Shown one piece after another: positions 8,123 to 41,841 of a stretch of 64,000 bases of DNA; positions within the stretch are counted from its first letter, which is position 1, and the number at the start of each line of letters is the position of its first letter. The stretch is from Patescibacteria group bacterium (GTDB taxonomy: Bacteria > Patescibacteriota > Minisyncoccia > Phycocordibacterales > PALSA-1337). The notes under the pieces were generated by a model. The model saw nothing but the letters and a program-made list of their open reading frames with translations, ran no database searches and was not told where the DNA came from. The stretch covers positions 47,244 to 111,243 of the forward strand of contig JAGWLA010000001.1 of assembly GCA_028865095.1 (NCBI GenBank), written 5' to 3'. The translations under genes were made by a program, and so were the position numbers.

Positions 8123-10393
8123 ATGTCGCAAGATATATCAGTCACGGGAAGAACGGTTGGCAAGAAGGGAAAGGATGGCGGCAGACGCTACGGATCGCTA
8201 TGGACGGCCTATCTGGCAGTCGCGGCTGCCGTCGCAGGGTTCTTAGGGTCGGTGCCGACCGCTGACGCTGCGGTCGCATATGTCCAATCAGCGAGCGGCT
8301 CGGCTTGGGGCGCGTCCGCTTCGGCGACGTTCCCGTCGGCCGTGACCGCCGGCGATATCATCGCCGTGGCGGTCGGCAGGAACTATAGCCCGACCTCGTC
8401 GACCATCGCCGACGACTGCGGCGCGGGCGGAGCGAGCGATGCCTATACCGTCGTCGACGCCCAGGACGGCGTGGCTACGGCCTATGCCGTCGCCGGACGG
8501 ACGGGGGCATGCACGGTGACCTACGCATGGGCGAGCTCGGGCACGTCCGAGACGAACATCGCCGCCCACGAGATCAGCGGCGTCGACGCGACGAATCCTG
8601 TCGATGCCCACGCCAGCTACTGGCAAAGCGGCTATGGCGACTACACGGCGGCCGACTCGATCAGCAGCGGCGCGGTCTCTACGTCGCATGATGGCGACTA
8701 CCTGTTCGGTGCGACTCAGAACGTCAGCCTCCAGAGCGCCTCGGTCGACGCAGGCGCGGGATACGTCCTTCGCCAACGGGTCATGAACTCGCTGACCACC
8801 GCGACCGAGGATCGGGTCCAGCCAGCGGCGGGAAGCGCGGCGGCGACTTTCACCAACGGCGCGTCGTGCAACGGCGGCTGCACCTTCGTCACGTCTCTCA
8901 TAGCCTTTGCCCCGGCGATCTCCGGTCAAGGCCAGAGCCTCCAGATGCCTCCGTCCGTCGCCTCGTTCTCCGCATCTCCCTCGTCCATCGGCCCCGGTTC
9001 GTCCGCGACCCTTTCCTGGGACGTGTCGTCCGCAGACGCGGTGACGATCAGCGGCATCGGGCCGGTGGCGACCTCGACCGGTTCGGTTCAGGTCTCGCCC
9101 GCCACGACGACCGGATATGTCTTGACGGCGACGAACGCGGCCGGCACCACGACGGCGACGGCGTCTGTCGCGGTCGTCAGCGGCGGATCCATCGGCCCGG
9201 TCGACACGTACCTCGACCTTTCGACCAGCACTTCAGGCGCGCATCTGACGGCCGCTCTCCTGAACGCGGGAACCCAGGGCGTCCAGGCGTGGGGCCCCCT
9301 CACGGATTACGGCGTCGCGACGTCGTCGACCGCCGGCATGACCGTCGCCACCAGCCAGCACGGTCTTTTGGCGCCGGTCAAGGTGGGCCCGACCGTCTTT
9401 CCGGCCAGTCACCAGACCCAGAGCATCGCCCTGGACAACGGCTACTACTACGAGAAGGCCGAGCAATACGTCCCCAGCGGCCACCGTTCGACCACGATCG
9501 CCGGCTGGGTGACGCTCGGTCCGCCGGACGCGGGCGTGAACGGCAGCACTTACGATTTGGCCTTCATCTATGGCGCGCCGGCCGGCGACTTCGCCGGGCT
9601 CCAATTGCGGACGGGCGCGCCGACCTACCATCTCTGGATCGAGACCGGCACGCCGACCGTCCATAGCAACCAGATCCTGGTCACGCCTGGCGCCACCTAC
9701 TGGTTCGCTCTCAATGCCGACTATGCTGCCGGCCTCGCCAAGCTGGCGGTCTTCGACGTCTCGGGCAACCAGGTCGGTTCGACCGTCACGGCGCCGCTCC
9801 CCGTCGGGGATACGGTCAGCTCGTTCCTCATCGGCAACGACGAGATAGGCGTCGCCTCCAGCACGACCTATTTCGAGGATATCATGGCTGATTACACGAA
9901 CGCGTCGTTCCCGTTAGGCCCATTGCCGTATGCTGCGCCGACGGTCTCGTCGGTCATGTCGACGCCTGCCACGACTACGGCACAGATCGCTTGGACTACC
10001 AGCTCGGCCGCCTCGTCCCAAGTCGCCTTTGGGACGACGACTGCGTACGGATCGACCACGGCGCAGACGGATCTGTCGCCCCTGGTTACGTCGCACGCGG
10101 TGGCGCTCGGAGGCCTTTCGGCCTGCACGACGTACCACTATCAGGTCGGCTCGGTCGACGCGTTCCTTAACGGCGCCACCAGCACCGATCAGACGTTCAC
10201 GACTGCCGGCTGCTCGTCGGGATCGACTTCGACGACGACCGGCATGTGCAGCCTCGCGAACGGCAACGGCACGGTCTCGGAATCGTCCCTCGATGCCGTC
10301 CTGCTCCCCGCTGTCCTGCCGCCGTCGTGCCCTGCAGGCTATATCTGCATACCGATGTCGTCTCTCTTCCGGATGTCGTCATCGACCCCGTAG
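8123..10393 (+). CDS. Large secreted Ala/Ser/Thr-rich surface protein (P1) with Ig/PKD-like, LamG-like and FN3-like modules
   Basis: Signal-peptide-like N-terminus (AVAAAVAGFLGSVPTADA). Segments LSWDVSSADAVTISG... (Ig-like) and TTAQIAWTT...TTYHYQV (FN3). C-terminal CPAGYIC motif. Confidence 0.7.
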   Translation: MSQDISVTGRTVGKKGKDGGRRYGSLWTAYLAVAAAVAGFLGSVPTADAAVAYVQSASGSAWGASASATFPSAVTAGDIIAVAVGRNYSPTSSTIADDCGAGGASDAYTVVDAQDGVATAYAVAGRTGACTVTYAWASSGTSETNIAAHEISGVDATNPVDAHASYWQSGYGDYTAADSISSGAVSTSHDGDYLFGATQNVSLQSASVDAGAGYVLRQRVMNSLTTATEDRVQPAAGSAAATFTNGASCNGGCTFVTSLIAFAPAISGQGQSLQMPPSVASFSASPSSIGPGSSATLSWDVSSADAVTISGIGPVATSTGSVQVSPATTTGYVLTATNAAGTTTATASVAVVSGGSIGPVDTYLDLSTSTSGAHLTAALLNAGTQGVQAWGPLTDYGVATSSTAGMTVATSQHGLLAPVKVGPTVFPASHQTQSIALDNGYYYEKAEQYVPSGHRSTTIAGWVTLGPPDAGVNGSTYDLAFIYGAPAGDFAGLQLRTGAPTYHLWIETGTPTVHSNQILVTPGATYWFALNADYAAGLAKLAVFDVSGNQVGSTVTAPLPVGDTVSSFLIGNDEIGVASSTTYFEDIMADYTNASFPLGPLPYAAPTVSSVMSTPATTTAQIAWTTSSAASSQVAFGTTTAYGSTTAQTDLSPLVTSHAVALGGLSACTTYHYQVGSVDAFLNGATSTDQTFTTAGCSSGSTSTTTGMCSLANGNGTVSESSLDAVLLPAVLPPSCPAGYICIPMSSLFRMSSSTP

Positions 10394-10480
10394 ATATTTG
10401 ATTATTCCGCTGATTTCTTGTATCCTACGCGTACCAAAGCCGCCGCGCTTTTTTAATTTAATAACCGCTCCCATCATCAT

Positions 10481-12646
10481 ATGAACCGCGATTACCCCCT
10501 GGATCGAGTGCGCAACTTCGGCATCATCGCCCACATCGACGCCGGCAAGACGACCACGTCCGAGCGCATCCTCTATTACACCGGCATGATCCACAAGATC
10601 GGCGAGGTGCACGAAGGCGAGACCACCACCGACTGGATGGAGCAAGAGCGCGAGCGCGGCATCACCATCACCGCGGCCGCCATCACGTGCTTCTGGAATC
10701 CCACGTATCTCCGAGGCGTCAAAGGCCCCGACGGCAAGGACGACGTCTCCAAGAAGGTCCGCTTCAACATCATCGATACGCCGGGCCACATCGACTTCAC
10801 GGTCGAGGTCAAGCGCTCTCTGCGCGTCCTCGACGGGGCCGTGGTCGTCTTCGACGGCGTGGCCGGCGTCGAGCCCCAGTCCGAGACCAACTGGCGCTAT
10901 GCCGACGAGGGCAACGTGCCGCGCCTCTGCTTCATCAACAAGATGGACCGCATGGGCGCCTCTTTCGAGCGCTCCTATCAGTCCATCCTCGAGCGCCTCA
11001 ACAAGCGCGCCGTGCGCTTCCAGCTCCCCATCGGCCTCGAAGCCGCCCATGAAGGCGTCGTCGACCTGATGCGCATGAAAGCCTATACCTTCACGGGGGA
11101 AAAGGGCATCGACGTCGTCGAGAGCGAGATCCCTGCCGACATGCTCGAAGACGCCAAGAAGTATCGCGCCGAGATGATCGAGAAGATCGTCGAGACCGAC
11201 GACGCCGCCATGAGCAAGTTCCTGGAAGGGGGAGAGTTCTCTCTCGACGAGCTCAAGGCGCTGACCCGCAAGGCCGTCATCGCCAACAAGCTCTTCCCGG
11301 TCTTTACCGGGTCGGCCCTCAAGAACGTCGGCGTCCAGCTCGTCCTCGACGCCGTCGTCGACTATCTGCCGTCGCCGCTCGATATCCCTCCGGTGCATGG
11401 CATCAACCCGAACACCGGCGAAGAGGTCATCCGCCATGCCAGCGACAGCGAGCCGTTCTGCGCCCTCGCCTTCAAGCTCCAGAACGACCCGTTCGTCGGC
11501 GCCCTGACCTTCTTCCGCGTCTATTCCGGATCGATCGAAGCGGGCACCTATATATATAATTCCTCCACCGGCAAGAAAGAGCGCCTTGGCCGCATCGTCC
11601 GCCTCCAAGCCGACAAGCGCGAGGAGGTCAAGAAGGTCTATGCCGGCGAGATCGCCGCCGCGGTCGGCCTCAAAGACGCCCTGACGTCGCACACGTTCTG
11701 CGATGAAGCCAACCCCATCGTCCTCGAGCAGATCAAGTTCATGGATCCCGTCATATCGCTCCGCGTGGAGCCCAAGACCAAGGCCGACCAGGAGAAGATG
11801 GGCATGGCCCTCCGCAAGCTCTCCATCGAAGACCCGACCTTCCGCATCAGCACCAATGCCGAGACGGGGGAGACCCTCATCTCGGGCATGGGCGAGCTCC
11901 ATCTCGAGATCATGGTGGACCGCATGAAGCGCGAATTCGGCGTCGAGACCACCGTCGGCGCGCCGCAGGTCGCATATCGCGAGACCATCCTCGGAGAGGC
12001 CGAAGCCGAGAACAAATACATCAAGCAGACCGGCGGCAAGGGCCAATACGGCCACGTCCGCCTGACTCTCCGCCCCATGAAGCCGCTCGTCGAAGGCGAG
12101 AAAGTCCCCAAGAACGTCAAGCGGTATGACGACTTCGAATTCGTCGACTCCATCAAGGGAGGCGTCATCCCCCAGGAATTCATCCCCGCCGTCGAGAAGG
12201 GCGTGCACGAAGCCATGGATCGCGGCATCGTGGCCGGCTATCCCATGGTCAATGTCTCTTGCGAGCTGACGTTCGGCTCGTACCATGACGTCGACTCGTC
12301 CGAGATCGCCTACAAGATCGCCGCGTCGCAGGCGTTCCAGGACGCCGCCAAGCGCGCCAAGCCCGTCATCCTCGAGCCCATCATGAAGCTCGAAGTCGTC
12401 TGCCCGGAGAAATACATCGGCGACGTCAACGGCTCCATCGCTTCCAAGCGCGGCCTCATCGAAGGCCAGAACCAGAAAGGCCAGAACGTCTCCATCATCG
12501 CCAAAGTGCCTCTTTCGGAGATGTTCGGCTATACCACGTCGCTCCGTTCGATGACGTCAGGCCAGGGCTCGGCCCAGCTCGAATTCGACCATTACGACGT
12601 CGTGCCCGCCAACGTCGCCCAGGAGATAGCGGAGAAGAGGAAATAA
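10481..12646 (+). CDS. fusA: Elongation factor G
   Basis: AHIDAGKTTTSERIL, NIIDTPGH and the full EF-G domain order. Confidence 0.96.
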   Translation: MNRDYPLDRVRNFGIIAHIDAGKTTTSERILYYTGMIHKIGEVHEGETTTDWMEQERERGITITAAAITCFWNPTYLRGVKGPDGKDDVSKKVRFNIIDTPGHIDFTVEVKRSLRVLDGAVVVFDGVAGVEPQSETNWRYADEGNVPRLCFINKMDRMGASFERSYQSILERLNKRAVRFQLPIGLEAAHEGVVDLMRMKAYTFTGEKGIDVVESEIPADMLEDAKKYRAEMIEKIVETDDAAMSKFLEGGEFSLDELKALTRKAVIANKLFPVFTGSALKNVGVQLVLDAVVDYLPSPLDIPPVHGINPNTGEEVIRHASDSEPFCALAFKLQNDPFVGALTFFRVYSGSIEAGTYIYNSSTGKKERLGRIVRLQADKREEVKKVYAGEIAAAVGLKDALTSHTFCDEANPIVLEQIKFMDPVISLRVEPKTKADQEKMGMALRKLSIEDPTFRISTNAETGETLISGMGELHLEIMVDRMKREFGVETTVGAPQVAYRETILGEAEAENKYIKQTGGKGQYGHVRLTLRPMKPLVEGEKVPKNVKRYDDFEFVDSIKGGVIPQEFIPAVEKGVHEAMDRGIVAGYPMVNVSCELTFGSYHDVDSSEIAYKIAASQAFQDAAKRAKPVILEPIMKLEVVCPEKYIGDVNGSIASKRGLIEGQNQKGQNVSIIAKVPLSEMFGYTTSLRSMTSGQGSAQLEFDHYDVVPANVAQEIAEKRK

Positions 12647-12707
12647 AGGATGTGGATAAGTCCTCTTGCGCCGATCCGTGCAAGAGCTACAATGTCACCA
12701 CTACCCA

Positions 12708-12738
12708 GGCAGCCGGCGTCCATCGGCTGCCTTTCTCC
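12708..12738 (+). terminator. Intrinsic terminator after fusA
   Basis: GGCAGCCG-loop-CGGCTGCC hairpin followed by TTTCTCC. Confidence 0.5.
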
Positions 12739-12742
12739 GTGG

Positions 12743-12751
12743 TGGTATGAT
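12743..12751 (+). promoter_or_regulatory. Extended -10 (TGgTATGAT) for the surface-protein gene P2
   Basis: Directly downstream of the fusA terminator, about 50 nt upstream of ATG 12805. Confidence 0.35.
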
Positions 12752-12804
12752 ATAGGAGATATAGACAGCATTTATTAAAGTACGCTCGTAGCAAGTTCAT
12801 CATA

Positions 12805-15800
12805 ATGAAAAAATCGACCATATCGTTTATCTCGGCATTCGGCATCATCGCCTCTGCGTTCTTTTTGAGTCTTCCTAGCGCGGTTCAGACTGTGAATGCG
12901 CAAAGCGCCGCTTCGACAAGCCCTGTGCTAGCGATCAGACAGGTGCCCGTGACGCACCCTTTGCTTATCGGCGAAAAACAAGCCCTTTTCGCCTCTTTCA
13001 ATCTGAGCGCAGCCTCTTCCTCTAAGGATGCGATGATATTCCTCTTCAAGATGACCATACCGATGTCGTGGAGCTTTGGCGACAAGAACGGTCATGTCAC
13101 ATTGGCAGATGAGATAAGCAGGCTGTCTAACTGCGGCCTCTATTCTGGGGCTACCAAGCTGGCTTCCGGGCCCAATGGGATCGGTACCCCCGATACGGAG
13201 CAGCTTTTCCTCCTCAATTCTGGATCGGGCTTGACCGTGAAAGCCGGTACGCAGACCCAGATAGATTTCCGCTGCGATTTCTCGTCAGCCGCCATACCAT
13301 CTGGAACGACGTACAAATATGAGTGGACTCTGGATCCGAACTACACGGAAGTATGGTCGCCAGTGAACGGGGCACTTGCAGATTTCGGCCGTCCCATATA
13401 CGCGACCACGCAGACACCGACGATATCGACGGCCGAAGGCGCCTCGTCATATCCGGTCGTCGTCAATATCTATCCGCCAAGCAGCAGCAATTCCTATCAG
13501 GTCGGAAACACCGTCAATTTCGTGGCGCAGGCATCGACAATGACCGCCCCGGTCGCTTTCTCTTGGGATTTCGGTGACGGTCAAAGCGCTACTGCGCAGC
13601 AGATAGGACATACCTATTACAAAGCGGGGGCTTACAAGGCGACGGTCACCGCTACGGATAGCGCTGGCCATATCTCCGCGCCGGTAGTTACCGAAGTCAA
13701 TATAACGCAGGCCGATCAGAGCGGATGTTATTCGTTCACTCGCAATCTCGGCCTCGGGTCGACTGGCTATGACGTCGTCCTTCTCCAGAACTGGCTCATC
13801 GCTCACGGGTTCGACATCCAGGCCATATCGAGCGGTCAGCAGCAAAAAGGATATTTCGGTTATGAGACTTCAGCTGCTCTTCAGAGATACCAGGCTAGCA
13901 TAGGGCTCCCTGCCACGGGATTCTTCGGTTCCATGACCATTTCGGCGATCGGCTCTAGCTGCGTCTCGAACCCGACGGCCCAGTCTTCGGGGTCGGCATC
14001 TGGGGCACAGCTGAGCGCCTCGCTCGATTCCTCATCGCCTCTGTCGAGCACGATCCTGATATCCACGGGCAGCCAGACTCAGGATGTGCCTCTCGAGGTC
14101 TTCGACCTCAGATCGAATGGGGCCACCTCGACTCTTCAGGCATTGAAGATCGACATCAACACGACCGGCCAGCCTTTCCCATCCATATTCAGCAATATAA
14201 CCATCAAGATCGGCGGCCGCACCTACACACCCTCTTCCATGGTCTCAGCGCCAGGCGGGACATACGCTTACGCAGCATTCGAGAACCTCGGAGCCTATCT
14301 TCCGACGAACGAATATGTCCCTGTGACCGTCTATGGGACCGTCGCTCAAGATACGAACGGCTTCCTCGACGGGTCGACCGCGACAGCGAGCCTTTTCACT
14401 GCCAGCACGACGGCAGTAGGCGCGAACGCGGCCCCTGTCCCCGTGGCGAGCTACCTCCCGGTCGTCGGCAACCAGATGACGTTCACCTCGAGCGGCCTCA
14501 TGGTGACCAATACAGCGGTCTCTCTCGGATCCCAGTCGCCCTCATGCGGATCGGGGGCCAGCAACGTCCCGTGCACTCAGCCGGTCACGCTCTCCTTCTC
14601 TCTCACCGCGGGGAACTATCCGATGTATATCGCTGCGAGCGCAATGGGCGCGAGCAGCTGCCCCGTAGGATATACATGCTCCTCTGCGAGCCCCTTCGTC
14701 TTCGCTGGTAAGGCAGTGAATGTCGCCCCAGTCTTCGCTGGCTCTGTCGCTAGCCCGGCCCAATTGCCTGGCGATGGGCCCGGCAGCTATCTGATCCCTG
14801 CCGGCTCGACCCGTTCGTTCACATATTACGGCTCTGTGAGCAATGCTAATTTGGCGGGCGGTTCGTATCTGATCGCCGTCACTGGGATCAAGTTCGGGAC
14901 CTCGACATCGAACCTGTTCGTCGGCACGATCACGTCCGGTCTCGGCAACCTCGCTACCATGATCAATCTCCCGGCCGGCAATAATAACGGCGGAGGGAGC
15001 CCGATCTCCACTTCATCGCTGTCTATCGGCCCGAACGACCAGGTCCGCACCTTCACCAAATCCTTCATGGCGACCCCGTCGTCCGGCTCGGTGCTTCTGG
15101 CCATCGCTGGCGATAACAAATATCTGGCCATGATCAACGGCGTCCCTGTCGCCGTCACCAGCGGCGAGACGGGATTCTACAATCCGAGGATCGTCGACGT
15201 CACTTCCCATATCGTCCAGGGGAACAACACCATCCAGGTCATCGCCGATAACATGCCTGACGGCAATGGGGCATTCCCGTGGAGCACCAACCCGGGCGGC
15301 GTCATCTTCAAAGTCGCCGGCGGCTCTTGCACCTCGAGCGTCTATTGCCTGAACGGCACTGTGTACGCGGTCAGCAACGGGACCGAGGGCATCGACAGGG
15401 GCTCGTCTGCCGTCATACCGTCTAACCAGCTCTATCCTGCCTGGACTTCGATTCCTGGCGCAAGCTGGGTCTGGGATTCCAACCTGATGGGTTCGAGCTC
15501 GAGCCTGCAACCGACGATCAGCCTTACGATGGATTCCGGGAGCGTCATACAGGCGGGCCAGCATATCGACTTCACGTACACAGTCTCGCCCGCAGGGAGA
15601 TACGACGTGGTGTACATACTCGTCCCCAGCGCTACTACTCCGAGGAAATCGACCGGTGTCGGTTCGAATTACGACGCTTCGTGGGGCGGATATAACATAG
15701 GCGGCTTTTCGCCGAATTATTCGATCAGTAGTTTTACACCCTATGGCGGAATATATATTCCGAGCGATATCCCTAACGGCACGTACTCTCTGACGGTGTA

Positions 15801-16290
15801 CTTGGCCGCATCCGGAAGCACCACCGGAGGCAGCGAAAAGGTGCCGACTCTTGCAGCTGCTAATTCAGGGATGTTCACTGTCACATCTGGCACGACAGTC
15901 AACCAGGCTTCTGTCACCTGTCCCGGCGGCTATATCTGCGTCGTCAATGGCCAGACGCTGTCATGCCCGTCAGGATACGCCTGCTCCTACGCATCGTATA
16001 ACTGTCCTTCCGGTTACGTCTGCTATACCTATAACAAGCCGTATTCTTCGCCTGCGCCGGCTCCGACCCCGTCGCCTTCGCCTGCGAAGACGGTGACCAC
16101 GGTCACGAACCCGTCTCCGACGCCAACGCCAACGCCTACGCCGACCACGACGACAACTTCGACGAAACCTTCGCCGACGTCGAGCCCGTCAGGCAGCCCG
16201 TATCCGTCGTCGTCCTCGCAATCGCTCGGGAATGCGGCTACCCAGCCGGCATCGGCATGGCAAGCTTTCCTCCAGCTGTTCGGATTCTGA
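12805..16290 (+). CDS. Giant secreted surface protein (P2) with PKD domain, peptidoglycan-binding domain, Thr/Pro/Ser linker and repeated CPxGYxC motifs
   Basis: Signal peptide MKKSTISFISAFGIIASAFFLSLPSAVQTVNA. PKD-like FSWDFGDGQSA...TATDSAGH. PG_binding_1-like LGLGSTGYDVVLLQNWL...GYFGYETSAALQRYQ. TPSPSPAKT...PTPTPTPTPTTTTT linker. Confidence 0.75.
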   Translation: MKKSTISFISAFGIIASAFFLSLPSAVQTVNAQSAASTSPVLAIRQVPVTHPLLIGEKQALFASFNLSAASSSKDAMIFLFKMTIPMSWSFGDKNGHVTLADEISRLSNCGLYSGATKLASGPNGIGTPDTEQLFLLNSGSGLTVKAGTQTQIDFRCDFSSAAIPSGTTYKYEWTLDPNYTEVWSPVNGALADFGRPIYATTQTPTISTAEGASSYPVVVNIYPPSSSNSYQVGNTVNFVAQASTMTAPVAFSWDFGDGQSATAQQIGHTYYKAGAYKATVTATDSAGHISAPVVTEVNITQADQSGCYSFTRNLGLGSTGYDVVLLQNWLIAHGFDIQAISSGQQQKGYFGYETSAALQRYQASIGLPATGFFGSMTISAIGSSCVSNPTAQSSGSASGAQLSASLDSSSPLSSTILISTGSQTQDVPLEVFDLRSNGATSTLQALKIDINTTGQPFPSIFSNITIKIGGRTYTPSSMVSAPGGTYAYAAFENLGAYLPTNEYVPVTVYGTVAQDTNGFLDGSTATASLFTASTTAVGANAAPVPVASYLPVVGNQMTFTSSGLMVTNTAVSLGSQSPSCGSGASNVPCTQPVTLSFSLTAGNYPMYIAASAMGASSCPVGYTCSSASPFVFAGKAVNVAPVFAGSVASPAQLPGDGPGSYLIPAGSTRSFTYYGSVSNANLAGGSYLIAVTGIKFGTSTSNLFVGTITSGLGNLATMINLPAGNNNGGGSPISTSSLSIGPNDQVRTFTKSFMATPSSGSVLLAIAGDNKYLAMINGVPVAVTSGETGFYNPRIVDVTSHIVQGNNTIQVIADNMPDGNGAFPWSTNPGGVIFKVAGGSCTSSVYCLNGTVYAVSNGTEGIDRGSSAVIPSNQLYPAWTSIPGASWVWDSNLMGSSSSLQPTISLTMDSGSVIQAGQHIDFTYTVSPAGRYDVVYILVPSATTPRKSTGVGSNYDASWGGYNIGGFSPNYSISSFTPYGGIYIPSDIPNGTYSLTVYLAASGSTTGGSEKVPTLAAANSGMFTVTSGTTVNQASVTCPGGYICVVNGQTLSCPSGYACSYASYNCPSGYVCYTYNKPYSSPAPAPTPSPSPAKTVTTVTNPSPTPTPTPTPTTTTTSTKPSPTSSPSGSPYPSSSSQSLGNAATQPASAWQAFLQLFGF

Positions 16291-16319
16291 GATCTCGCGC
16301 GCTTGAAGCATGAAGGCAG

Positions 16320-16346
16320 AAACCCCCGTCCATCGGGGGTTTCTCG
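16320..16346 (+). terminator. Intrinsic terminator of P2, lying inside the 5' end of the track ORF 16310
   Basis: AAACCCCCG-TCCAT-CGGGGGTTT hairpin followed by CTCG. Confidence 0.45.
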
Positions 16347-16351
16347 CATGC

Positions 16352-16357
16352 TATAAT
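16352..16357 (+). promoter_or_regulatory. TATAAT -10 box 6 nt upstream of ATG 16364 (leaderless start of the glycosyltransferase operon)
   Basis: GCTATAATCCGGCCATG. Confidence 0.45.
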
Positions 16358-16363
16358 CCGGCC

Positions 16364-17731
16364 ATGAAACGATTCCTGCCGCCGGCGCTGGTGGCGCTGG
16401 CGAGCGCCGTGACCCATCTCCTCTATTTCGGATATCCGGCGCAAGTGGTGTTCGACGAGACGTACTCAGGCCGGTTCCTCGGCGACATCTCCCGAGGGAC
16501 GTTCTTCTTCGACGTCCATCCGCCCCTCGCCAAGCTCATCGTCTACGCGTTCGGCCTCTTGACGGGGGCTTCATACGGGGCCGACGTCGGCTCCATCGGG
16601 GACGCTTTGCCGCATTCCCTCGTCCTCCTGCGGATCGTGCCGCTGGCGTGCGGCATCCTTCTGCCGCTCGCCGTCTACGGCATCGCCCGGAATATCGGCT
16701 TGTCGCGGGTCGCGGCGTCGCTCGCAGGATTTGCGGCGGCGTTCGAGAGCTCGCTCATCGTGCAATCGAGATTCATCCTCTTCGACAGCATGCTCCTCAT
16801 CTTCGGCTTCGGCGCCATCCTTTGCTGGCAGGAATATCGCAAGCGACGGGCAGGGAAGCGGCTGTCAGGAGCCGGAGCTTCTTTCTTGGCGATGTCGGCG
16901 ATCCTCGCCGCGGGCGCGTTCTCCGTCAAATGGACGGGGCTGGCCTTCCCGGCCCTCATCCTGCTCTTCGAGGGGCGCGAGGCTCTCCGCCTTCCCGCGG
17001 GCACGGCCATGAAGCGCGTCCGAGACCGGGTCGCGGCCGCGGCCCGCTCCATCGCGCCGTTCGTCGCCGCATTCGCCGTCGCCGGGGCGGCGGTGTATGC
17101 CGGCTCATTCGCCGCCGAGCTCGCCCTTGCCTCCGGCCCCGGTACAGGGGACCAGTTCGTCAGCAGGAGCTTCCATCAGGAAAGCTTTCCGGCGCAGCTC
17201 GTCGATCTGAACGTCGCCATGTATCAAGAGAACGCCCACGGCATGTCTTCCCATCCGTATCAAAGCCCGTGGTGGAGCTGGCCGCTCATGCTCCGGCCGA
17301 TATTCTACTGGGTCGGCTCGGGCGCATACATATATCTGTTCGGGGACCCGTTCACGTATTGGATGAGCGCGGCCGCCCTTCTGGCCGTCTTCGGGCATTG
17401 CTTGTCGGCGAAGCGCCGGGCGCAGGGCGCGGACGCTGAGCGCAGGGAAGCGGGGATATTCATCGCCATCGGATTCCTGGCGAACTATGCGCCTTTCGTG
17501 CTCATCACCCGCCCGATGTTCCTCTACCATTATCAGGCGGCGCTCGTCTTCGGCATCCTGGCTTTGGCCTGGGCGGCCGACCTCGTCCCGGCGCGCAAGA
17601 AGCTGGCCGTCGCCGCGACGATCGCGGCAGCCTGCCTCGCGGGCTATATCTATTGGAGCCCGCTCATCTACGGGACGCATCTCGATCAGGCCCAGCTCCA
17701 AGCGCGGATGTGGCTGCCGAGCTGGCGATGA
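16364..17731 (+). CDS. pmt: Protein O-mannosyltransferase (GT39 / PMT family)
   Basis: VVFDETYSGRF matches the PMT loop-1 DE motif (VFDEVHFG). Multi-TM. Start moved to ATG 16364 downstream of the terminator and -10 box. Confidence 0.7.
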   Translation: MKRFLPPALVALASAVTHLLYFGYPAQVVFDETYSGRFLGDISRGTFFFDVHPPLAKLIVYAFGLLTGASYGADVGSIGDALPHSLVLLRIVPLACGILLPLAVYGIARNIGLSRVAASLAGFAAAFESSLIVQSRFILFDSMLLIFGFGAILCWQEYRKRRAGKRLSGAGASFLAMSAILAAGAFSVKWTGLAFPALILLFEGREALRLPAGTAMKRVRDRVAAAARSIAPFVAAFAVAGAAVYAGSFAAELALASGPGTGDQFVSRSFHQESFPAQLVDLNVAMYQENAHGMSSHPYQSPWWSWPLMLRPIFYWVGSGAYIYLFGDPFTYWMSAAALLAVFGHCLSAKRRAQGADAERREAGIFIAIGFLANYAPFVLITRPMFLYHYQAALVFGILALAWAADLVPARKKLAVAATIAAACLAGYIYWSPLIYGTHLDQAQLQARMWLPSWR

Positions 17732-18900
17732 CCATGAAGGAGCGCGACGGGCTACAAGTGGCGGCAGTGATCATCCCGACCTATAACGAGGCCGGGGCCA
17801 TCGGCGCCCTCCTCGAAGAGGTCGCCGGGATCGCCTCCTCGGGCAGCCGGTGGCGGATAGAGGTAATCGTCGTCGACGGATGCTCCGAAGACGGGACGGC
17901 CGGCATCGTCGAGGCCGCTGCCGCGCGCGGCGCGCTCCGCATCCATCTGCTGCGCGAGCCGGAGCGCCAGGGCATCGGCGCGGCGTATTGCCGCGGCTTC
18001 CGATATGCCATCGAAGAGGTCGGCGCCGACGCCGTCATCGAGTTCGACGGCGATCTCCAGCATCCCCCGTCGCATATACCGCAGCTCTTGCAGGCTCTCG
18101 ACGACGGAGCCGATTATGTGGCCGCTTCGCGGCGCATGGAAGGGGGCTCCGAGCCTGCAGGCCGCAGCGCATTCCGAAAGGCTCTCACTTCGCTCGGCGG
18201 CGGGGCGGCGCGCTTCATCCTGTTCTTCCCGCATGCCGCGTTCCGGCAGGTGACCGACCCGACCACCGGCCTCAAAGCGACCCGGGTCGCCGGCTTCGCC
18301 GACTCGCTCTGCCTCGACCCGTCGAGGCTCGTCAGCCGCGGCTTCGGCTATAAGCTCCAGTGGCTGTCCGAGACGCTGCGCCTCGGCGCGCGCTATCGGG
18401 AGATACCGCTCCGCTTCCAGGACCGCCGGGCCGGCCGCTCGAAGTTCGCCCCTCCCGTCATCGCCGATATCCTCTGGACGTGCGCCGTCGTCCGGGCTTC
18501 CGACCCGCGGACGAAGCGCTTCATCAGGTATGCCGCAGCGGGGTCGGCCGGCTATATCGTGAATGCCGCCGCTCTCGCCCTCCTGTATCGCCTTACCGGC
18601 ATCGAAGCCCTGTCCTGGGCCCTTTCCGCCGAGGCGGCCATCATCTGCAATTACGCTCTCAACAACGTCTGGGCATTCGGCGACCGCCGCAAGACGGGCT
18701 TTTCCAGCTGGTTCGGCGGGTTCCTGGCCTTCAATCTCGCCTCTCTCGGAGCCATCGCCATCGAAGGCGTGTTCGGGCCCCTTCTGACGTCGCTTGTCGG
18801 CCCGTCCTATCGCCAGCTCGTCTTGGCTGCGGTCGTCCTCTTCATGGTCGTGCCGTATAACTGGCTCATGTATAGCCGCTTGATATGGAAACAGCGATGA
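17728..18900 (+). CDS. Polyprenol-phosphate mannose synthase (GT2, Ppm1/Dpm1-like) fused to a C-terminal GtrA-like membrane domain
   Basis: IIPTYNE, VIEFDGDLQHPP (compare Dpm1 DADLSHHP) and a C-terminal GtrA-like 4-TM segment (YAAAGSAGYIVNAAALALLY...ICNYALNNVWAF). ATGA overlap with the pmt stop. Confidence 0.8.
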   Translation: MTMKERDGLQVAAVIIPTYNEAGAIGALLEEVAGIASSGSRWRIEVIVVDGCSEDGTAGIVEAAAARGALRIHLLREPERQGIGAAYCRGFRYAIEEVGADAVIEFDGDLQHPPSHIPQLLQALDDGADYVAASRRMEGGSEPAGRSAFRKALTSLGGGAARFILFFPHAAFRQVTDPTTGLKATRVAGFADSLCLDPSRLVSRGFGYKLQWLSETLRLGARYREIPLRFQDRRAGRSKFAPPVIADILWTCAVVRASDPRTKRFIRYAAAGSAGYIVNAAALALLYRLTGIEALSWALSAEAAIICNYALNNVWAFGDRRKTGFSSWFGGFLAFNLASLGAIAIEGVFGPLLTSLVGPSYRQLVLAAVVLFMVVPYNWLMYSRLIWKQR

Positions 18901-20105: not shown

Positions 20106-20135
20106 AGGCCTCTTTACATGCAGAGGGCTAACTAC

Positions 20136-20156: not shown

Positions 20157-20211
20157 TGCACCCATCATTTTGCTTTTGTTTTTTTAGGCTAGCTATATAC
20201 TTTGTGGCGTA

Positions 20212-39432: not shown

Positions 39433-39435
39433 GCT

Positions 39436-39903: not shown

Positions 39904-40020
39904 GGTGTTGTTCGTGCGATTAGGCGGATAATCCTATGTGCTGGCTTCTTTAGAGGCTGACGGGGCTGCGGCCGATTTCTTACATCGGCGGGCGCGCGGA
40001 TGCGGGCGCCGTGCCCGGCG

Positions 40021-41841
40021 TCAGATCACCGGCGCAGTGGTGAGGCCGAATTCTCCGGTCTCCTGGCTGTTCCCGTTCGCGTCGACCGACTTTATGATGA
40101 AGCGATAGGACGTGCCTGCGGAAAGCCCGGAGACGGTCACTTCATGGCTAGCGGCCAGCGACGGATCGACGACCGCTTGGGTGGAGCTCGCTCCGATGAC
40201 GACCGGAGAGGACGTCGAGTAGTAGACCTCGGAATCCGCGTCATCGGCGGTATCCCACGTGAGCTTGACCGAGCCGGTCCCTACGAGAGCCATGGCGTTC
40301 GATATCGTCGGGCTGGTCGAAGCGGTCGTAGTGGCCGCTGCCGCCGTCGAGAAGCTTATCTCGGAAGACGTGGCGGCTCCGGCGGCATCAGACGATCGCA
40401 CCGCGACATAGTACAGCGTCGAAGGGGAGAGGCCGGTCAGGACGATCGAATGGTTGGTGATCGAGGAAGGGTCGCTCGCAGAGAGCGTCCCCGCGCCTCC
40501 GATGACCGGCGACGAGGTCGAATAATAGGCCGTCGAATCGGAGCTCTGGTCGGTGCTCCAGCCGATGGCCGCGGTCGAGGTGCCGATGGCCGAAGCGTTG
40601 AGGCCGCTGATGACCGGAACGGATGCGGTGCTCGAAGCGGCCGTCACTTCGATGGCCGTGCTCGACGACGTCGTCAGGCCGGAAGCGTCCTTAGCGGTGA
40701 AGGTCACGGTGTAAGTCCCGGTCGCGGCGTATTCATGAGAGAACGTCGACGTCTGGAGATACACGGGCTGTCGGGCTACGAGAGCCATGAATCGCATGGC
40801 CGGCTGGTCGCCCCAGTCGACGCTGTATGACAGCGGCTGGTCCTGCGGGTCATACGCGTCGACCGACCATGTGCCTTGTTCGCCTGCAGTCAGGGAGCCT
40901 GGTCCGGCGACCGATGTTATGACCGGAGGCTTGGCGTTAGCCGGCGTAGGCGTGACGAACGATATCTCCGATGACGTGCTCATGGCGCCGTTCGGGCCTT
41001 TCGAGCCGACGACCGCGAAGTAGGTCGTGGCGCTCTGCAGGCCGGTCAAGCGGACGGCGTGGTAGAAGACATCGCCGACATGCTCGATCTGCGGCGCGCC
41101 GGACGTGTCGACAGGCGAGGAGGTCCCGTACCAGACCTCGCTATCCGAGCGCTCGTTCGTCTTCCATGCGATGGTCGCCGAAGAGGGACGCGTAGACGTG
41201 GCGCTCAAGCCCGATATGACGGGTCCCGAAGAAGAGGACGCTATGTTCACGGTCACCGACGACGTCGTGGTCAGGCCGGCGCTGTCCTTGACCGTGAAGG
41301 TCACGGTGTAGACGCCGGGCGACGAGTATTCATGGGAGAAGGAGGCGGTCTGGACGAAGACCGGCTGCGCGGCCAGGAACGCCATCCAGCGTGGGCTCTC
41401 GCCCCAGTCGACCGAGTAGCTAAGGGTCCCATTCTGCGGATCAGAAGCGCTCACCGTCCAGGTGCCGGTCTGGCCTGGCTGAAGGACGGTCGGCGACGAT
41501 ATCCCGCTGATGACCGGCGGAAGGGCTGATGTCGGCGTGGTAGGCCCGGGCGTCTGGCTGCCGTCATCGCTTCCGGCGCTGTCATCGTCCCCGTCGGCTT
41601 TTTGGCCGTCGGCCGACAGCGGCTGACCGTTCGATGCGGCTATGGAGAAAGAAGGGTGGTTCTTATTCCACCCCGGCGCGATGGCGTGCCCGAGAGCGCG
41701 GCCGTTATCTTCGCCCTTAGTCGCCGCGAAGGCGGCGAGCGAAGGCGATGCCAGCGCGAGGACGGATGCTATGGCTCCTGCGATGGCGAGGCCCTTTGCG
41801 GTCACTGATCGGTGCTTATCTCGATGTGATTGATTCATCAT
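40021..41841 (-). CDS. Large secreted surface protein (P4) with three FN3 and two PKD-like repeat modules
   Basis: Signal peptide. Repeated ISGLSA...WKTN/WSTD...YFAV/YYVAV FN3 modules and two YSVDWG...FSHEY...YTVTFT PKD-like modules. Confidence 0.7.
   Translation of the reverse strand: MMNQSHRDKHRSVTAKGLAIAGAIASVLALASPSLAAFAATKGEDNGRALGHAIAPGWNKNHPSFSIAASNGQPLSADGQKADGDDDSAGSDDGSQTPGPTTPTSALPPVISGISSPTVLQPGQTGTWTVSASDPQNGTLSYSVDWGESPRWMAFLAAQPVFVQTASFSHEYSSPGVYTVTFTVKDSAGLTTTSSVTVNIASSSSGPVISGLSATSTRPSSATIAWKTNERSDSEVWYGTSSPVDTSGAPQIEHVGDVFYHAVRLTGLQSATTYFAVVGSKGPNGAMSTSSEISFVTPTPANAKPPVITSVAGPGSLTAGEQGTWSVDAYDPQDQPLSYSVDWGDQPAMRFMALVARQPVYLQTSTFSHEYAATGTYTVTFTAKDASGLTTSSSTAIEVTAASSTASVPVISGLNASAIGTSTAAIGWSTDQSSDSTAYYSTSSPVIGGAGTLSASDPSSITNHSIVLTGLSPSTLYYVAVRSSDAAGAATSSEISFSTAAAATTTASTSPTISNAMALVGTGSVKLTWDTADDADSEVYYSTSSPVVIGASSTQAVVDPSLAASHEVTVSGLSAGTSYRFIIKSVDANGNSQETGEFGLTTAPVI

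What the first reader, a model, noticed from the sequence alone, without database searches (positions are those of the whole stretch)
8123..41841. Four giant secreted Ser/Thr/Ala-rich proteins with a modular architecture; three share a recurring CP-x-GY-x-C micro-motif
P1 (8123-10393), P2 (12805-16290), P3 (20212-23984) and P4 (40021-41841, minus strand) all have signal peptides and Ig/PKD/FN3 modules. P2 and P3 also carry peptidoglycan-binding (PG_binding_1-like) domains, with two tandem copies at the P3 C-terminus. This suggests non-covalent wall anchoring. P3 additionally has a LamG lectin domain and a right-handed beta-helix, giving an adhesin or glycan-binding look. The short Cys motif CPAGYIC (P1), CPVGYTC / CPGGYIC / CPSGYAC / CPSGYVC (P2) and CPAGMVC (P3) recurs across the three plus-strand proteins and is not a named domain to my knowledge. 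It could be a small disulfide-stapled module or a recognition motif.
Basis: seen in the sequence. Interest (0 to 1): 0.6.

Follow-up and report, generated by a model that had tools for sequence, protein, structure and literature searches.

The report
Cysteine-hairpin modules in Patescibacteria wall proteins
The short CP-x-G-Y-x-C motif is a real, reusable two-cysteine mini-module found in large wall-associated surface proteins of ultrasmall Patescibacteria, whose genes sit with protein-mannosylation genes between the elongation factor genes fusA and tuf; no domain database names it and its function is untested.

Summary
All four ORFs exist and have signal-peptide-like N-termini. They have 22-29% Ser+Thr, against 10-12% in cytoplasmic neighbours. 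The PKD, PG_binding_1, LamG and FN3-like domains are confirmed. The six CPxG[YM]xC heptads are exact and lie only in P1-P3 (6 observed, 0.00025 expected).

The motif is not chance. A profile of the tandem copies finds 97 representative proteins, about 80 of them Patescibacteria-type, carrying about 420 units. The units come in three forms: a doublet just after the signal peptide, a 6-Cys triplet with fixed 15/13 spacing (P2 aa 1039-1073 is canonical), and single units in loops or linkers. Pfam and NCBIfam have no model for it. The nearest sequence matches are partial hits to granulin and lustrin hairpins.

In this genome scan, convincing tandem copies occur almost only in Parcubacteria, Paceibacterota or Saccharibacteria-labelled MAGs. 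There the gene usually lies between fusA and tuf, sometimes with the glycosyltransferase genes GT39 PMT, GT2-GtrA and GT87, as in this window.

The most likely role is a disulfide-braced structural spacer in abundant, O-mannosylated, peptidoglycan-bound envelope proteins. Disulfide connectivity, glycosylation and expression remain untested.

I rate this a new variant of a known kind, of moderate interest.

The parts
8123..10393 (+). P1: secreted Ser/Thr/Ala-rich protein (NCBI MDE2037654.1), inserted between rpsG/dinB and fusA. Most of it has no Pfam match. It has an Ig-like stretch at about aa 275-350 and an FN3-like stretch at aa 616-694.
10328..10348 (+). P1 single unit CPAGYIC (aa 736-742), 14 residues from the C-terminus.
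   Evidence: Conservation could not be tested because the only close homologue, P0170, is truncated.
10481..12646 (+). fusA (EF-G), the left border of the surface-protein island.
12805..16290 (+). P2: a member of a Patescibacteria family of wall-associated surface proteins (NCBI MDE2037656.1). Homologous over aa ~300-900 to P0082 (E 2.5e-131) and many others.
13480..13695 (+). P2 PKD domain (aa 226-297).
13765..13950 (+). P2 PG_binding_1 domain (aa 321-382), bracketed by Cys308 and Cys386.
14659..14679 (+). P2 single unit CPVGYTC (aa 619-625), a loop insertion in a conserved beta-rich domain. The whole unit is present in 8 of 25 aligned homologues besides P2 and absent, both Cys together, in the others.
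15919..16023 (+). P2 triple module CPGGYIC-x8-CPSGYAC-x6-CPSGYVC (aa 1039-1073). A canonical copy of the 6-Cys module with 15/13 spacing.
16024..16239 (+). P2 Pro/Ser/Thr-rich linker (aa ~1074-1145), the candidate O-mannosylation substrate.
   Evidence: at least 60% S/T/P over aa 1074-1152
16240..16287 (+). P2 extreme C-terminal tail ...TQPASAWQAFLQLFGF, a family-wide amphipathic tail.
16310..17731 (+). GT39-type protein O-mannosyltransferase homologue (PMT + PMT_4TMC) with the loop-1 motif VVFDE...FFDVHPP. It starts 19 nt after the P2 stop.
17653..18900 (+). GT2 + GtrA/DPMS-TM protein, polyprenyl-phosphate-sugar synthase-like. The start codon is uncertain.
18885..20105 (+). GT87-family membrane glycosyltransferase homologue.
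20214..23984 (+). P3: signal peptide, LamG (aa 99-246), FN3-like modules, a probable parallel beta-helix with choice_anch_Q (aa ~465-835), an FN3-like stretch (aa 986-1063), one Cys unit, and two PG_binding_1 copies (aa ~1098-1252).
23451..23471 (+). P3 single unit CPAGMVC (aa 1080-1086), in the linker between the FN3-like domain and the first PG_binding_1 copy.
24160..25347 (+). tuf (EF-Tu), the right border of the island.
40021..41841 (-). P4: secreted protein with two PKD and three FN3-like domains, no cysteine and no motif. Its PKD type is the one that usually precedes the triple module in family members.

Best explanation
The window comes from a Patescibacteria (CPR) MAG. P1-P4 are Sec-exported, low-charge, Ser/Thr-rich multidomain envelope proteins.

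The module. CPxG[YF]xC is a lineage-enriched, portable mini-module. It is a short turn or hairpin carrying a cysteine pair, and it is used in three ways:
- as a doublet directly after the signal peptide;
- as a roughly 45-aa triplet with fixed 15/13 spacing, of which P2 aa 1039-1073 is a canonical copy;
- as single units spliced into loops or inter-domain linkers (P2 aa 619, P3 aa 1080, P1 aa 736).

Most likely role (inferred). After export the cysteine pairs oxidise. The units then act as rigid, protease-resistant braces or spacers between Ig-like, PKD and PG_binding_1 domains of exposed wall-associated proteins.

The island. P2 and P3 lie in an interval between fusA and tuf that in many Patescibacteria holds PG_binding_1 proteins. 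In this window the island also encodes a GT39 PMT, a GT2-GtrA sugar-carrier synthase and a GT87 enzyme. From this I infer that the Pro/Ser/Thr linkers are O-mannosylated. I also infer that the proteins are made abundantly, because they share a strand and short gaps with EF-G and EF-Tu. They would be held at the wall by PG_binding_1, and in P2 perhaps also by a C-terminal amphipathic tail.

Shown: the genes, the domains, motif enrichment and conservation, the stereotyped spacing, the taxonomic bias, and the synteny.
Inferred: disulfide formation and its connectivity, glycosylation, high expression, and the anchoring topology.
For: Enrichment. Six units against 0.00025 expected, and none in coding frames elsewhere in the window.

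Family size. A profile search of 1.84 billion representatives gives 97 hits at E<=0.001. Of these, 51 have the 15-16/13-14 triplet, 34 have an N-terminal doublet and 53 have the C-terminal tail.

Conservation. In 50 triplets, eleven columns are invariant (all six Cys, three Gly and two Pro); the third Pro and two Tyr are at least 90% conserved.

Cysteine pairing.
- There are 422 full units against 40 half units, and most half units are in unrelated proteins. Non-motif Cys counts are even in 89 of 100 proteins.
- The single unit at P2 aa 619 is gained or lost as a whole.
- In P2 all 16 Cys fall into local pairs, and all 12 do in P3.

Partner domains. PG_binding_1 is in 32 of 50 triple-module proteins and PKD in 27. 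None carries an enzyme domain.

Taxonomy. The genome scan gave 28 hits, of which I judged 17 to be true motif hits by reading frame, ORF and peptide. Most of these come from MAGs labelled Parcubacteria, Paceibacterota, Patescibacteria or Saccharibacteria; four are labelled only 'bacterium'/'uncultured bacterium' and one (L006) is labelled Bacteroidota but matches a Paceibacteria locus (L015). Apart from three unrelated Cys-repeat proteins (L001, L003, L010), the remaining hits in other phyla are out of frame or low-complexity. There were no viral hits.

Synteny.
- 14 of those 17 genome loci have fusA or tuf within 8 kb.
- The metagenome loci L037 and L053 show the complete fusA-[PG_binding_1 proteins]-tuf arrangement.
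- P0082 lies upstream of tuf and P0141 downstream of fusA.

Glycosylation genes. PMT lies directly downstream of the P2-like gene in L005/L043 and L016. L016 also has GT2-GtrA and GT87 at 59-62% identity to the window enzymes. The window PMT scores 108.7 and 151.9 bits on the two GT39 Pfam domains and has the VVFDE loop motif.

Expression and disulfides in relatives.
- Signal-peptide proteins with PG-binding, Ig-like and PKD domains are among the most highly expressed genes in cultured Ca. Paceibacteria (PMC10936435).
- Paired cysteines were also noted in extracellular CPR pilins and proposed to form disulfides (bioRxiv 10.64898/2026.03.03.709456).
Against: - To my recollection of the published structure (not checked here), in the centipede toxin RhTx (2mva, a sequence hit) the two cysteines of its CPSGYRC stretch bond to other cysteines. 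Intra-unit pairing is therefore not guaranteed.
- P1 has 9 Cys, an odd number.
- No Dsb or VKOR gene lies in the window.
- The island is not universal. Ca. Yanofskyibacterium has rpsG-fusA-tuf contiguous. Close P2 homologues also sit next to pilM or rpsS.
- Co-transcription is inferred only from shared strand and short gaps. The promoter and terminator scan is at chance level.
- PMT scores far below the NCBIfam equivalog cut-off for actinobacterial Pmt (44 against 800 bits), so its substrate and sugar are unknown.
Confidence: 0.6

Rival explanations
1. The units are binding elements rather than passive braces. Like granulin or EGF-like hairpin modules, they would be displayed to recognise a host-cell or matrix ligand, making P2-type proteins host-attachment adhesins of an epibiont.
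For: The best sequence resemblances are to granulin (2jye, E 0.018) and the lustrin Cys repeat. The family proteins carry adhesin-type domains and no enzymes. Two close P2 homologues sit at the head of type IV pilus clusters. PMC10936435 proposes host attachment for the PG-binding proteins of Paceibacteria.
Against: Variable positions within the unit are small and bland (A/V/S/T at position 3, T/I/V at position 6). Units sit at linker positions, next to PT-rich spacers or directly after the signal peptide. The resemblance to granulin is below significance and covers only hairpin turns.
Confidence: 0.17
2. The cysteines bind a metal (Zn, Fe or Cu) or act in redox chemistry. Tandem units would supply Cys4 or Cys6 sites.
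For: Tandem doublets and triplets give 4 or 6 closely spaced Cys. CPxG resembles the knuckle of zinc ribbons (my own knowledge).
Against: The proteins are Sec-exported and extracellular. Single units with only two Cys are common (P1, P3, P2 aa 619). The C-x5-C spacing is not a known metal knuckle. No His or Asp co-ligands are conserved.
Confidence: 0.06
3. The heptad is a recognition site for a modification or sorting enzyme, for example a glycosylation sequon around the following Thr-Pro or a processing site, rather than a fold element.
For: The unit is typically followed by T-P (T 42%, P 36%). It abuts PT-rich linkers. A PMT gene is adjacent in three genomes. Doublets sit directly after the signal-peptide cleavage site.
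Against: Most motif loci show no PMT nearby. The fixed 15/13 spacing and invariant Cys, Pro and Gly argue for a folded unit. Units also occur inside loops of folded domains.
Confidence: 0.12
4. Chance recurrence in low-complexity Ser/Thr/Gly-rich sequence.
For: The proteins are compositionally biased.
Against: Expected 0.00025, observed 6. There are hundreds of conserved copies in homologues with fixed spacing.
Confidence: 0.01

Closest known systems
Granulin/epithelin module (Pfam PF00396; PDB 2JYE granulin A)
   Same: It contains CPxG[YF]TC hairpin turns (SCPDGYTCC, HCCPAGFTC) in an extracellular stack of disulfide-linked beta-hairpins. It is the best PDB sequence hit of the triple-module profile. 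The only papers holding 'CPAGYTC' concern human granulin peptides.
   Different: Granulin has 12 Cys with doubled CC pairs that form an inter-hairpin ladder (my own knowledge). The triplet here has 6 single Cys. Scores are below threshold (E 0.018; Pfam 18.9-19 bits against a cut-off of 20.9). No structural match was found. Granulin is eukaryotic.
Lustrin cysteine-rich repeat (Pfam PF14625)
   Same: The central part of the profile (positions 17-37 of 46) matches each CPxGYxC unit. Multi-copy proteins sum to above the cut-off (P0005 segment 28.2 bits; 4 of 50 family proteins at E<=1e-3).
   Different: Only about 20 of 46 profile positions and two of the domain's cysteines are matched. The P2 segments score 23.7 and 14.8 bits, below the cut-off of 27. 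That family is known from animal proteins (my own knowledge).
EGF-like domain C5-C6 hairpin (C-P-x-G-[YF]-x-G-x-x-C)
   Same: The same CPxG[YF] turn closed by a cysteine pair, in extracellular modular proteins (established knowledge of the EGF signature).
   Different: The loop here is shorter (C-x5-C against C-x8-C), the other four EGF cysteines are absent, and no EGF model hits at E<=1 apart from EGF_Hmr-1 at E 0.94.
NCBIfam TIGR04201 Myxo_Cys_RPT (bacterial Cys-rich repeat)
   Same: A bacterial short Cys repeat whose profile weakly aligns to the unit (14.1 and 7.3 bits).
   Different: Both scores are below the cut-off of 25. A Myxococcota protein with DCPTGYVCE repeats found in the scan did not hit this model either. 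It is a different lineage with different spacing.
Actinobacterial protein O-mannosylation (Pmt GT39 with polyprenyl-phosphate-mannose synthase Ppm1; GT87 mannosyltransferases)
   Same: The same three enzyme families are encoded side by side, next to Sec-exported proteins with Pro/Thr/Ser-rich linkers. The PMT has both GT39 Pfam domains and the loop-1 DE motif.
   Different: The lineage is different (Patescibacteria). The NCBIfam Pmt equivalog score is 44 against 800 bits. The sugar, the lipid carrier and the acceptor are all untested.
Highly expressed PG-binding/Ig-like/PKD extracellular proteins of Ca. Paceibacteria (PMC10936435)
   Same: The same phylum-level lineage and the same domain vocabulary with a signal peptide. 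Those proteins are reported among the five most highly expressed signal-peptide genes.
   Different: That paper describes no cysteine motif, no fusA-tuf location and no PMT linkage. Sequence identity to P2 could not be checked. In its Yanofskyibacterium genome fusA and tuf are adjacent.

Membership tests
PG_binding_1 (PF01471) | Profile match above the gathering score | tested here: met
   P2 scores 39.8 bits (cut-off 23), aa 321-382. P3 scores 78 bits in two stretches at the C-terminus. P1 and P4 have none.
PKD (PF00801 / PF18911) | Profile match above the gathering score | tested here: met
   P2 scores 56.3 and 47.6 bits. P4 scores 69.9 and 45.2 bits, two copies. P1 and P3 have none.
Laminin_G_3 / concanavalin-like lectin (PF13385) | Profile match above the gathering score | tested here: met
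   P3 scores 83.5 bits (cut-off 27.6), aa 99-246.
FN3-like (PF16656 Pur_ac_phosph_N / PF00041) | Profile match above the gathering score | tested here: inconclusive
   P4 scores 83.3 bits (met). P1 scores 28 and P3 27.5 bits against a cut-off of 30. NCBI nevertheless names P1 an FN3 domain protein.
Right-handed parallel beta-helix (pectate-lyase-like), P3 aa ~465-835 | Beta_helix/PbH1 profile match, or a confident beta-helix model | tested here: inconclusive
   There is no Pfam Beta_helix hit. choice_anch_Q scores 48.9 bits, above its cut-off of 25. GH120 xylosidase 3vst hits at E 6.9e-6. The AF2 single-sequence model has pLDDT 40.6. The Foldseek top hits are all beta-helix enzymes, but with E>=0.048.
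Granulin (PF00396) | A 12-Cys module and a profile score above 20.9 bits | tested here: not met
   Scores are 18.9-19 bits. The triplet has only 6 Cys. The PDB profile hit to 2jye has E 0.018.
Lustrin_cystein (PF14625) | A full-length match to the 46-position Cys-rich profile above 27 bits | tested here: not met
   P2 segments score 23.7 and 14.8 bits. The matches cover only profile positions ~17-39.
TIGR04201 Myxo_Cys_RPT | Score above 25 bits | tested here: not met
   7.3 bits for the P2 triplet and 14.1 bits for a consensus-like triplet.
GT39 protein O-mannosyltransferase (ORF 16310-17731) | PMT (PF02366) plus the C-terminal 4-TM domain (PF16192) | tested here: met
   108.7 and 151.9 bits.
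GT39 protein O-mannosyltransferase (ORF 16310-17731) | Conserved acidic DE motif in the first extracytoplasmic loop | tested here: met
   The sequence reads ...AQVVFDETYSGRFLGD...FFFDVHPPLAKL. The comparison with the fungal and actinobacterial consensus is from my own knowledge.
GT39 protein O-mannosyltransferase (ORF 16310-17731) | Mannosyl transfer from polyprenyl-phosphate-mannose to Ser/Thr of exported proteins | not testable with these tools
   Only context is available: the adjacent GT2-GtrA and GT87 genes and the PT-rich substrates. The NCBIfam Pmt equivalog scores 44 against 800 bits.
Sortase-anchored (LPXTG) surface proteins | C-terminal LPXTG followed by a hydrophobic stretch and a basic tail | tested here: not met
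   The only LPxTG-like match is P2 aa 368, inside PG_binding_1. No protein has a C-terminal signal of this type.
CPR pilus protein PamR (NF058578) | Equivalog score of at least 300 bits | tested here: not met
   P2 scores 29.1 and P4 36 bits, over Ig-like stretches only.
Patescibacterial 'triple CPxGYxC' module (defined here) | Three CPxG[YF]xC units with unit starts 15-16 and 13-14 residues apart | tested here: met
   P2 units start at aa 1039, 1054 and 1067 (spacing 15/13). They align with 49 other triplets with the Cys and Gly columns invariant and the Pro columns invariant or at least 90% conserved. P1 and P3 have single units only.

The most novel reading that the evidence does not exclude
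P2-family proteins are the major envelope glycoprotein, possibly an S-layer-like protein, of many Paceibacteria-type Patescibacteria. They would be transcribed from within the str operon together with EF-G and EF-Tu, and O-mannosylated by a GT39 system previously characterised only in Actinobacteria and eukaryotes. They would be positioned by a so far undescribed combination of three elements: PG_binding_1, the disulfide-braced CPxGYxC hairpin stack, and a conserved C-terminal amphipathic tail (...ASIWDAIxxYF / ...WQSFLNLLGF) acting as a lineage-specific anchoring or sorting signal.
Probability: 0.2. Interest if true: 0.75.

Novelty: new variant of a known kind. Interest (0 to 1): 0.5.

Why it matters
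Patescibacteria make up a large share of bacterial diversity and live attached to other cells, yet the composition of their envelope is almost unknown. This analysis provides several handles on it:
- a sequence-defined marker, the 6-Cys triplet profile, for one family of their large wall-associated proteins;
- evidence that these genes occupy a privileged place inside the ribosomal/elongation-factor operon;
- a link to a complete-looking protein O-mannosylation gene set;
- a candidate C-terminal anchoring signal.

Each point can be tested directly by proteomics, glycoproteomics or cryo-ET in the few cultivated lineages. The module is also a compact, repeatable disulfide scaffold that protein engineers might find useful. 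If the units turn out to be only generic braces, the finding is a modest addition to domain catalogues.

Tried and rejected
- Word-indexed homologue search with the 68-aa tandem segment of P0005. It collected only 4 candidates and no useful hit. The index does not cope with this short repetitive query, so one search was wasted.
- Homologues of P1. The only close one (P0170, 54% identity) is a truncated contig-end protein lacking the C-terminus. Conservation of the P1 unit could not be tested.
- AF2 of the triple module with a 50-sequence alignment. pLDDT was 63, with three short strands on the Y-x-C-x-x segments. No coordinates are returned, so Cys-Cys distances could not be measured.
- AF2 of the P3 beta-helix region without an alignment. 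pLDDT was 40.6, and the Foldseek hits are suggestive but not significant.
- Relaxed Pfam scans of the unannotated parts of P1 and P2. Nothing credible.
- NCBIfam scan of the C-terminal tails. No model.
- TIGR04201 as a possible home for the unit. Below cut-off, and the Myxococcota repeat protein from the scan does not hit it either.
- Viral contigs. No tandem units.
- Literature searches for the motif string and for PMT in Patescibacteria. Nothing beyond human granulin peptides.
- Promoter and terminator scan of 7400-25500. Counts are at chance level, so there is no operon evidence beyond shared strand and spacing.
- Rejected readings: chance low-complexity recurrence, LPXTG sortase anchoring, and membership of PamR, granulin or lustrin.

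Full report
**Checking the observation**

The four ORFs are present. P1 is 8123-10393 (+, 756 aa), P2 is 12805-16290 (+, 1161 aa) and P4 is 40021-41841 (-, 606 aa). The frame opens at TTG 20202, the first ATG is at 20214, and the stop is at 23984.

Each N-terminus has a basic stretch, a hydrophobic stretch and an AxA-type site. I judged this by eye, because no signal-peptide predictor was available.

Composition is distinctive. S+T is 22-29% against 10-12% in fusA, tuf, ftsH, recG and dinB of the same window. Charged residues are 7-11% against 24-29%.

Pfam and NCBIfam confirm most of the stated domains:
- P2 has PKD and PG_binding_1.
- P3 has Laminin_G_3, two C-terminal PG_binding_1 copies and choice_anch_Q.
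- P4 has two PKD and three FN3-like domains.
- P1 has only a sub-threshold FN3-like hit. Most of P1, and about 700 residues of P2, match no Pfam family even at E<=1.

The P3 beta-helix is plausible but not proven. Support comes from choice_anch_Q and a phmmer hit to the GH120 xylosidase 3vst at E 6.9e-6. The single-sequence AF2 model has pLDDT 40.6. Its Foldseek top hits are all beta-helix enzymes, but none is significant.

The six heptads are exactly as quoted. They are the only in-frame CPxGxxC occurrences in the window. Six are observed against about 0.00025 expected. P4 has no cysteine at all.

**What the motif is**

Two P2 homologues carry the same heptad at different places:
- P0005 has four tandem copies right after the signal peptide.
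- P0020 has two copies after an N-terminal PG_binding_1.

A profile of the tandem segments was searched exhaustively against 1.84 billion representative proteins. It found 97 proteins at E<=0.001, carrying about 420 units. The unit consensus is C-P-[AVST]-G-[YF]-[TIV]-C, usually followed by T/S then P.

The units occur in three arrangements:
- A triplet with unit starts 15-16 and then 13-14 residues apart, seen in 51 proteins. Its consensus is vCPaGYICtPpGxxxxCPaGYTCTxvTxNCPSGYTCyT. Eleven columns are invariant across 50 sequences: all six Cys, three Gly and two Pro. The third Pro and two Tyr are at least 90% conserved. P2 aa 1039-1073 is a canonical member.
- A doublet at about residues 35 and 50, immediately after the signal peptide, seen in 34 proteins.
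- Single units. The P2 unit at aa 619 lies in a loop of a conserved beta-rich domain. Eight of the 25 aligned homologues have it at the same position, and the others lack the whole unit, both cysteines together.

About 16 of the 97 hits are unrelated short repeat proteins, such as those with CPPGYWC or CPVGFWC. They show that the turn itself recurs elsewhere.

**Is it a named domain?**

No model covers it at normal thresholds. At relaxed thresholds the units partially match several families:
- Lustrin_cystein, profile positions 17-37 of 46. P2 scores 23.7 bits against a cut-off of 27.
- Granulin, at about 19 bits against a cut-off of 20.9, and CBM_1, at 17-21 bits against 20.6, reaching that cut-off only for the P0005 segment.
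- TIGR04201, at no more than 14.1 bits against a cut-off of 25.

The best PDB sequence hit of the triplet profile is granulin A (2jye, E 0.018), aligned on its SCPDGYTCC and HCCPAGFTC hairpins.

Full-text literature search finds the heptad string only in papers on human granulin peptides.

The module therefore works like the Cys-braced hairpins of granulin, EGF and lustrin. It is not a member of any of those families.

**Do the cysteines pair?**

The evidence is indirect.
- Full units outnumber half units by 422 to 40, and most half units are in unrelated proteins.
- Non-motif cysteines are even in number in 89 of 100 proteins.
- In P2 all 16 cysteines fall into local pairs. In P3 all 12 do.
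- Single units exist on their own and are gained or lost whole.
- Other C-x5-C loops are present: CTSSVYC in P2 and CSITSKC in P3.

These facts favour a self-contained intra-unit disulfide. Three points argue for caution.
- To my recollection (not checked here), in the centipede toxin RhTx (2mva, a sequence hit) a CPSGYRC stretch uses its two cysteines for other partners.
- P1 has an odd cysteine count.
- No coordinates could be inspected.

**Where it occurs**

I scanned 185,579 species-representative genomes for a degenerate DNA pattern encoding two units 13 residues apart. This gave 28 loci. Translation shows 17 true motif proteins. Twelve come from MAGs labelled Parcubacteria, Paceibacterota, Paceibacteria, Patescibacteria, Taylorbacteria or Saccharibacteria. 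Four are labelled only 'bacterium' or 'uncultured bacterium'. One is labelled Bacteroidota but matches a Paceibacteria locus.

Eight hits, in Streptomyces, Nocardia, Nitrospira, Clostridia, Gammaproteobacteria, Acidobacteriaceae and Obscuribacterales, are out of frame or low-complexity. The other three (L001, L003 Acidobacteriaceae and L010 Myxococcota) are in-frame but unrelated Cys-repeat proteins. Viral contigs gave nothing.

P2 itself is NCBI MDE2037656.1, 'PKD domain-containing protein [Patescibacteria group bacterium]', on a 236,652-bp contig.

**Genomic context**

The window is the str-S10-spc ribosomal superoperon. The gene order is:

rpsG (4280) ... dinB ... P1 - fusA - P2 - PMT - GT2/GtrA - GT87 - P3 - tuf - ... 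rplW - rplB - [HlyD/ABC/MacB, decarboxylase] - rpsS - rplV - rpsC ... rplN - rplE - [P4 on the minus strand, ECF sigma, DUF5667].

The DNA scan did not use synteny. Even so, 14 of the 17 true genome loci have fusA or tuf within the 8-kb locus. The metagenome scan repeats this result in L037, L040, L044, L045, L046, L053 and L055.

Two loci show the complete arrangement:
- L037 has four PG_binding_1 ORFs between fusA and tuf. The last one carries the triplet.
- L053 has a 1058-aa triplet protein and a PG_binding_1 + PKD protein between fusA and tuf.

The best P2 homologue, P0082, lies just upstream of tuf, and P0141 lies downstream of fusA. The fusA-tuf interval is therefore a conserved island for PG_binding_1 surface proteins in many Patescibacteria.

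It is not universal:
- Ca. Yanofskyibacterium has rpsG-fusA-tuf contiguous.
- P0005 lies directly upstream of rpsS.
- P0072 and P0108 lie upstream of pilM and other type IV pilus genes.
- P0020 is near ftsK.

**Glycosylation genes**

ORF 16310-17731 starts 19 nt after the P2 stop. It has both GT39 domains (PMT 108.7 bits, PMT_4TMC 151.9 bits) and the loop-1 VVFDE...FFDVHPP motif.

It is followed by a GT2 + GtrA/DPMS-TM protein, which resembles a polyprenyl-phosphate-sugar synthase, and by a GT87 homologue.

The same PMT lies downstream of the P2-like gene in L005/L043. In L016 the whole set of PMT, GT2-GtrA and GT87 is present at 58-62% identity, followed by tuf. In all three genomes the P2-like protein ends with a long Pro/Ser/Thr linker.

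By analogy with actinobacterial Pmt and Ppm1 (established knowledge), I infer O-mannosylation of these linkers. The low NCBIfam equivalog score (44 against 800 bits) means the enzyme is divergent, and its sugar and acceptor are unknown.

**Mechanism proposed**

Shown: exported-type, low-charge, Ser/Thr-rich modular proteins; PG_binding_1 in P2 and P3; a conserved, portable two-Cys unit with stereotyped arrangements; restriction to Patescibacteria; an island between fusA and tuf; adjacent GT39, GT2-GtrA and GT87 genes.

Inferred:
- After Sec export the Cys pairs oxidise and brace short hairpins. These stiffen and protect linkers between Ig-like, PKD and PG-binding domains.
- The PT linkers are O-glycosylated.
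- Their position within the elongation-factor operon gives high expression. This is consistent with the report that PG-binding/Ig-like/PKD signal-peptide proteins are among the most highly expressed genes in cultured Ca. Paceibacteria (PMC10936435).
- PG_binding_1 holds the proteins on peptidoglycan, either the cell's own or a host's.

The rivals are a ligand-binding role for the units, metal binding, and a modification or sorting site. None is excluded, but each fits the data less well. Chance is excluded.

**C-terminal tail (seen in passing)**

About half of the family members end in a conserved tail after the PT linker. This includes P2 (...TQPASAWQAFLQLFGF). Other examples are ...TASIWDAINQYYASGGN and ...SASVWQSFLNLLGF. 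The tail is seen in 46 of 100 family proteins against 1 of 108 controls with a simple pattern. It has no NCBIfam or Pfam model.

It reads as a three-turn amphipathic helix. By analogy with the C-terminal amphipathic membrane anchors of low-molecular-weight PBPs (my own knowledge), it may be a membrane-surface anchor or a docking or sorting signal. This is untested.

**Novelty and verdict**

The proteins are already deposited, with generic names. Abundant PG-binding surface proteins in Paceibacteria have been reported before. The following could not be found in the databases or literature searched:
- the definition of the CPxGYxC unit and its 6-Cys triplet as a Patescibacteria-enriched module;
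- its linkage to the fusA-tuf island and to a GT39 gene set;
- the C-terminal tail.

I rate this a new variant of a known kind, namely small disulfide-braced modules of extracellular proteins. Interest is 0.5.

Noticed in passing
window 16240-16287 (P2 C-terminus); also the family proteins P0005 and P0073-P0166: A conserved extreme C-terminal tail, roughly [ST]-A-S-[IV]-W-[DQN]-[AS]-[IVF]-x-x-[YFL]-[FLY] plus 2-5 residues. A second flavour reads ...FY[AS][IVM]GD[LF][LV]D.... It follows a PT-rich linker and looks like an amphipathic helix. It is found in 46/100 family proteins against 1/108 controls, and no Pfam or NCBIfam model covers it. It may be a lineage-specific anchoring or sorting signal.
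   Followed up: partly
window 4280-44000: The ribosomal str-S10-spc superoperon is interrupted at several junctions by non-ribosomal genes: rpsG|fusA (dinB, unknown ORFs, P1); fusA|tuf (P2, three glycosyltransferases, P3); rplB|rpsS (HlyD, ABC ATPase, MacB/FtsX, Orn/DAP decarboxylase, 28627-33898); and after rplE (unknown ORFs, P4, ECF sigma, DUF5667).
   Followed up: partly
window 34188-35225 (+): The ORF holding ribosomal protein S19 is 345 aa, with the S19 domain only at aa 232-311. It is either a long N-terminal extension or a mis-called start with an unannotated upstream element.
   Followed up: no
L033 8001-18919 and L034 8001-12771: Two close P2 homologues (P0072, P0108) sit directly upstream of pilM and, in L033, a full type IV pilus assembly cluster (PilM, PilO, two T2SSE ATPases, T2SSF). 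This suggests a possible link between this protein family and pili.
   Followed up: no
window 40021-43773; PMC10936435 supplement: P4 lies next to an ECF-type sigma factor (42138-42674) and a DUF5667 protein (42667-43773). In Ca. Yanofskyibacterium the most highly expressed signal-peptide protein (PMX_810_sub_00350) also lies next to a DUF5667 gene.
   Followed up: no
window P2 aa 842-848 (nt 15328-15348) and P3 aa 479-485 (nt 21648-21668): Other C-x5-C loops lack the P-x-G-Y core (CTSSVYC, CSITSKC). P2 also has a C-x8-C loop (CGSGASNVPC, aa 581-590). Short-range Cys loops seem to be a general habit of these proteins.
   Followed up: no
P0100, P0101, P0105, P0112, P0113 (C-terminal regions): A longer variant of the unit, Y-S-C-P-S-G-Y-T-[LM]-N-S-...-C, with the second Cys about 12 residues further on. 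It recurs in pairs near the C-terminus of some family members.
   Followed up: no
L037 1340-7362: Three PG_binding_1 + FN3-like proteins in the fusA-tuf island of another Patescibacteria contig lack the Cys unit. They end in a different hydrophobic or amphipathic tail (...GIISIISAHIGSLINSFIKFISNIF...IGFYIQNLIHFLSNIF).
   Followed up: no
L036, L042, L051; L003; L047, L052, L060; L010: Unrelated proteins reuse the same heptad. These include small 183-aa secreted proteins with NCPPGYQCLPIAPSCPPGYQC (GC 0.57-0.58), an Acidobacteriaceae protein with a poly-Pro tail, low-GC proteins with 17-27 units, and a very acidic Myxococcota protein with DCPTGYVCE repeats.
   Followed up: no
window 25374-26885 (-): A 503-aa minus-strand ORF with no Pfam hit overlaps the place where rpsJ, rplC and rplD are expected, between tuf and rplW. 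It is probably spurious. The plus-strand ORFs there were not checked.
   Followed up: no
window 8060-8087 (+): A sigma-70-like promoter match (TTGAAT-16-TATAAT, 10/12) lies 36 nt upstream of the P1 start codon. Overall promoter counts in the region are at chance level.
   Followed up: no
window 1110-1874 (-): An Fe/Mn superoxide dismutase homologue has about 70 extra N-terminal residues. This hints at an oxygen-exposed lifestyle, which would be compatible with extracellular disulfide formation.
   Followed up: no
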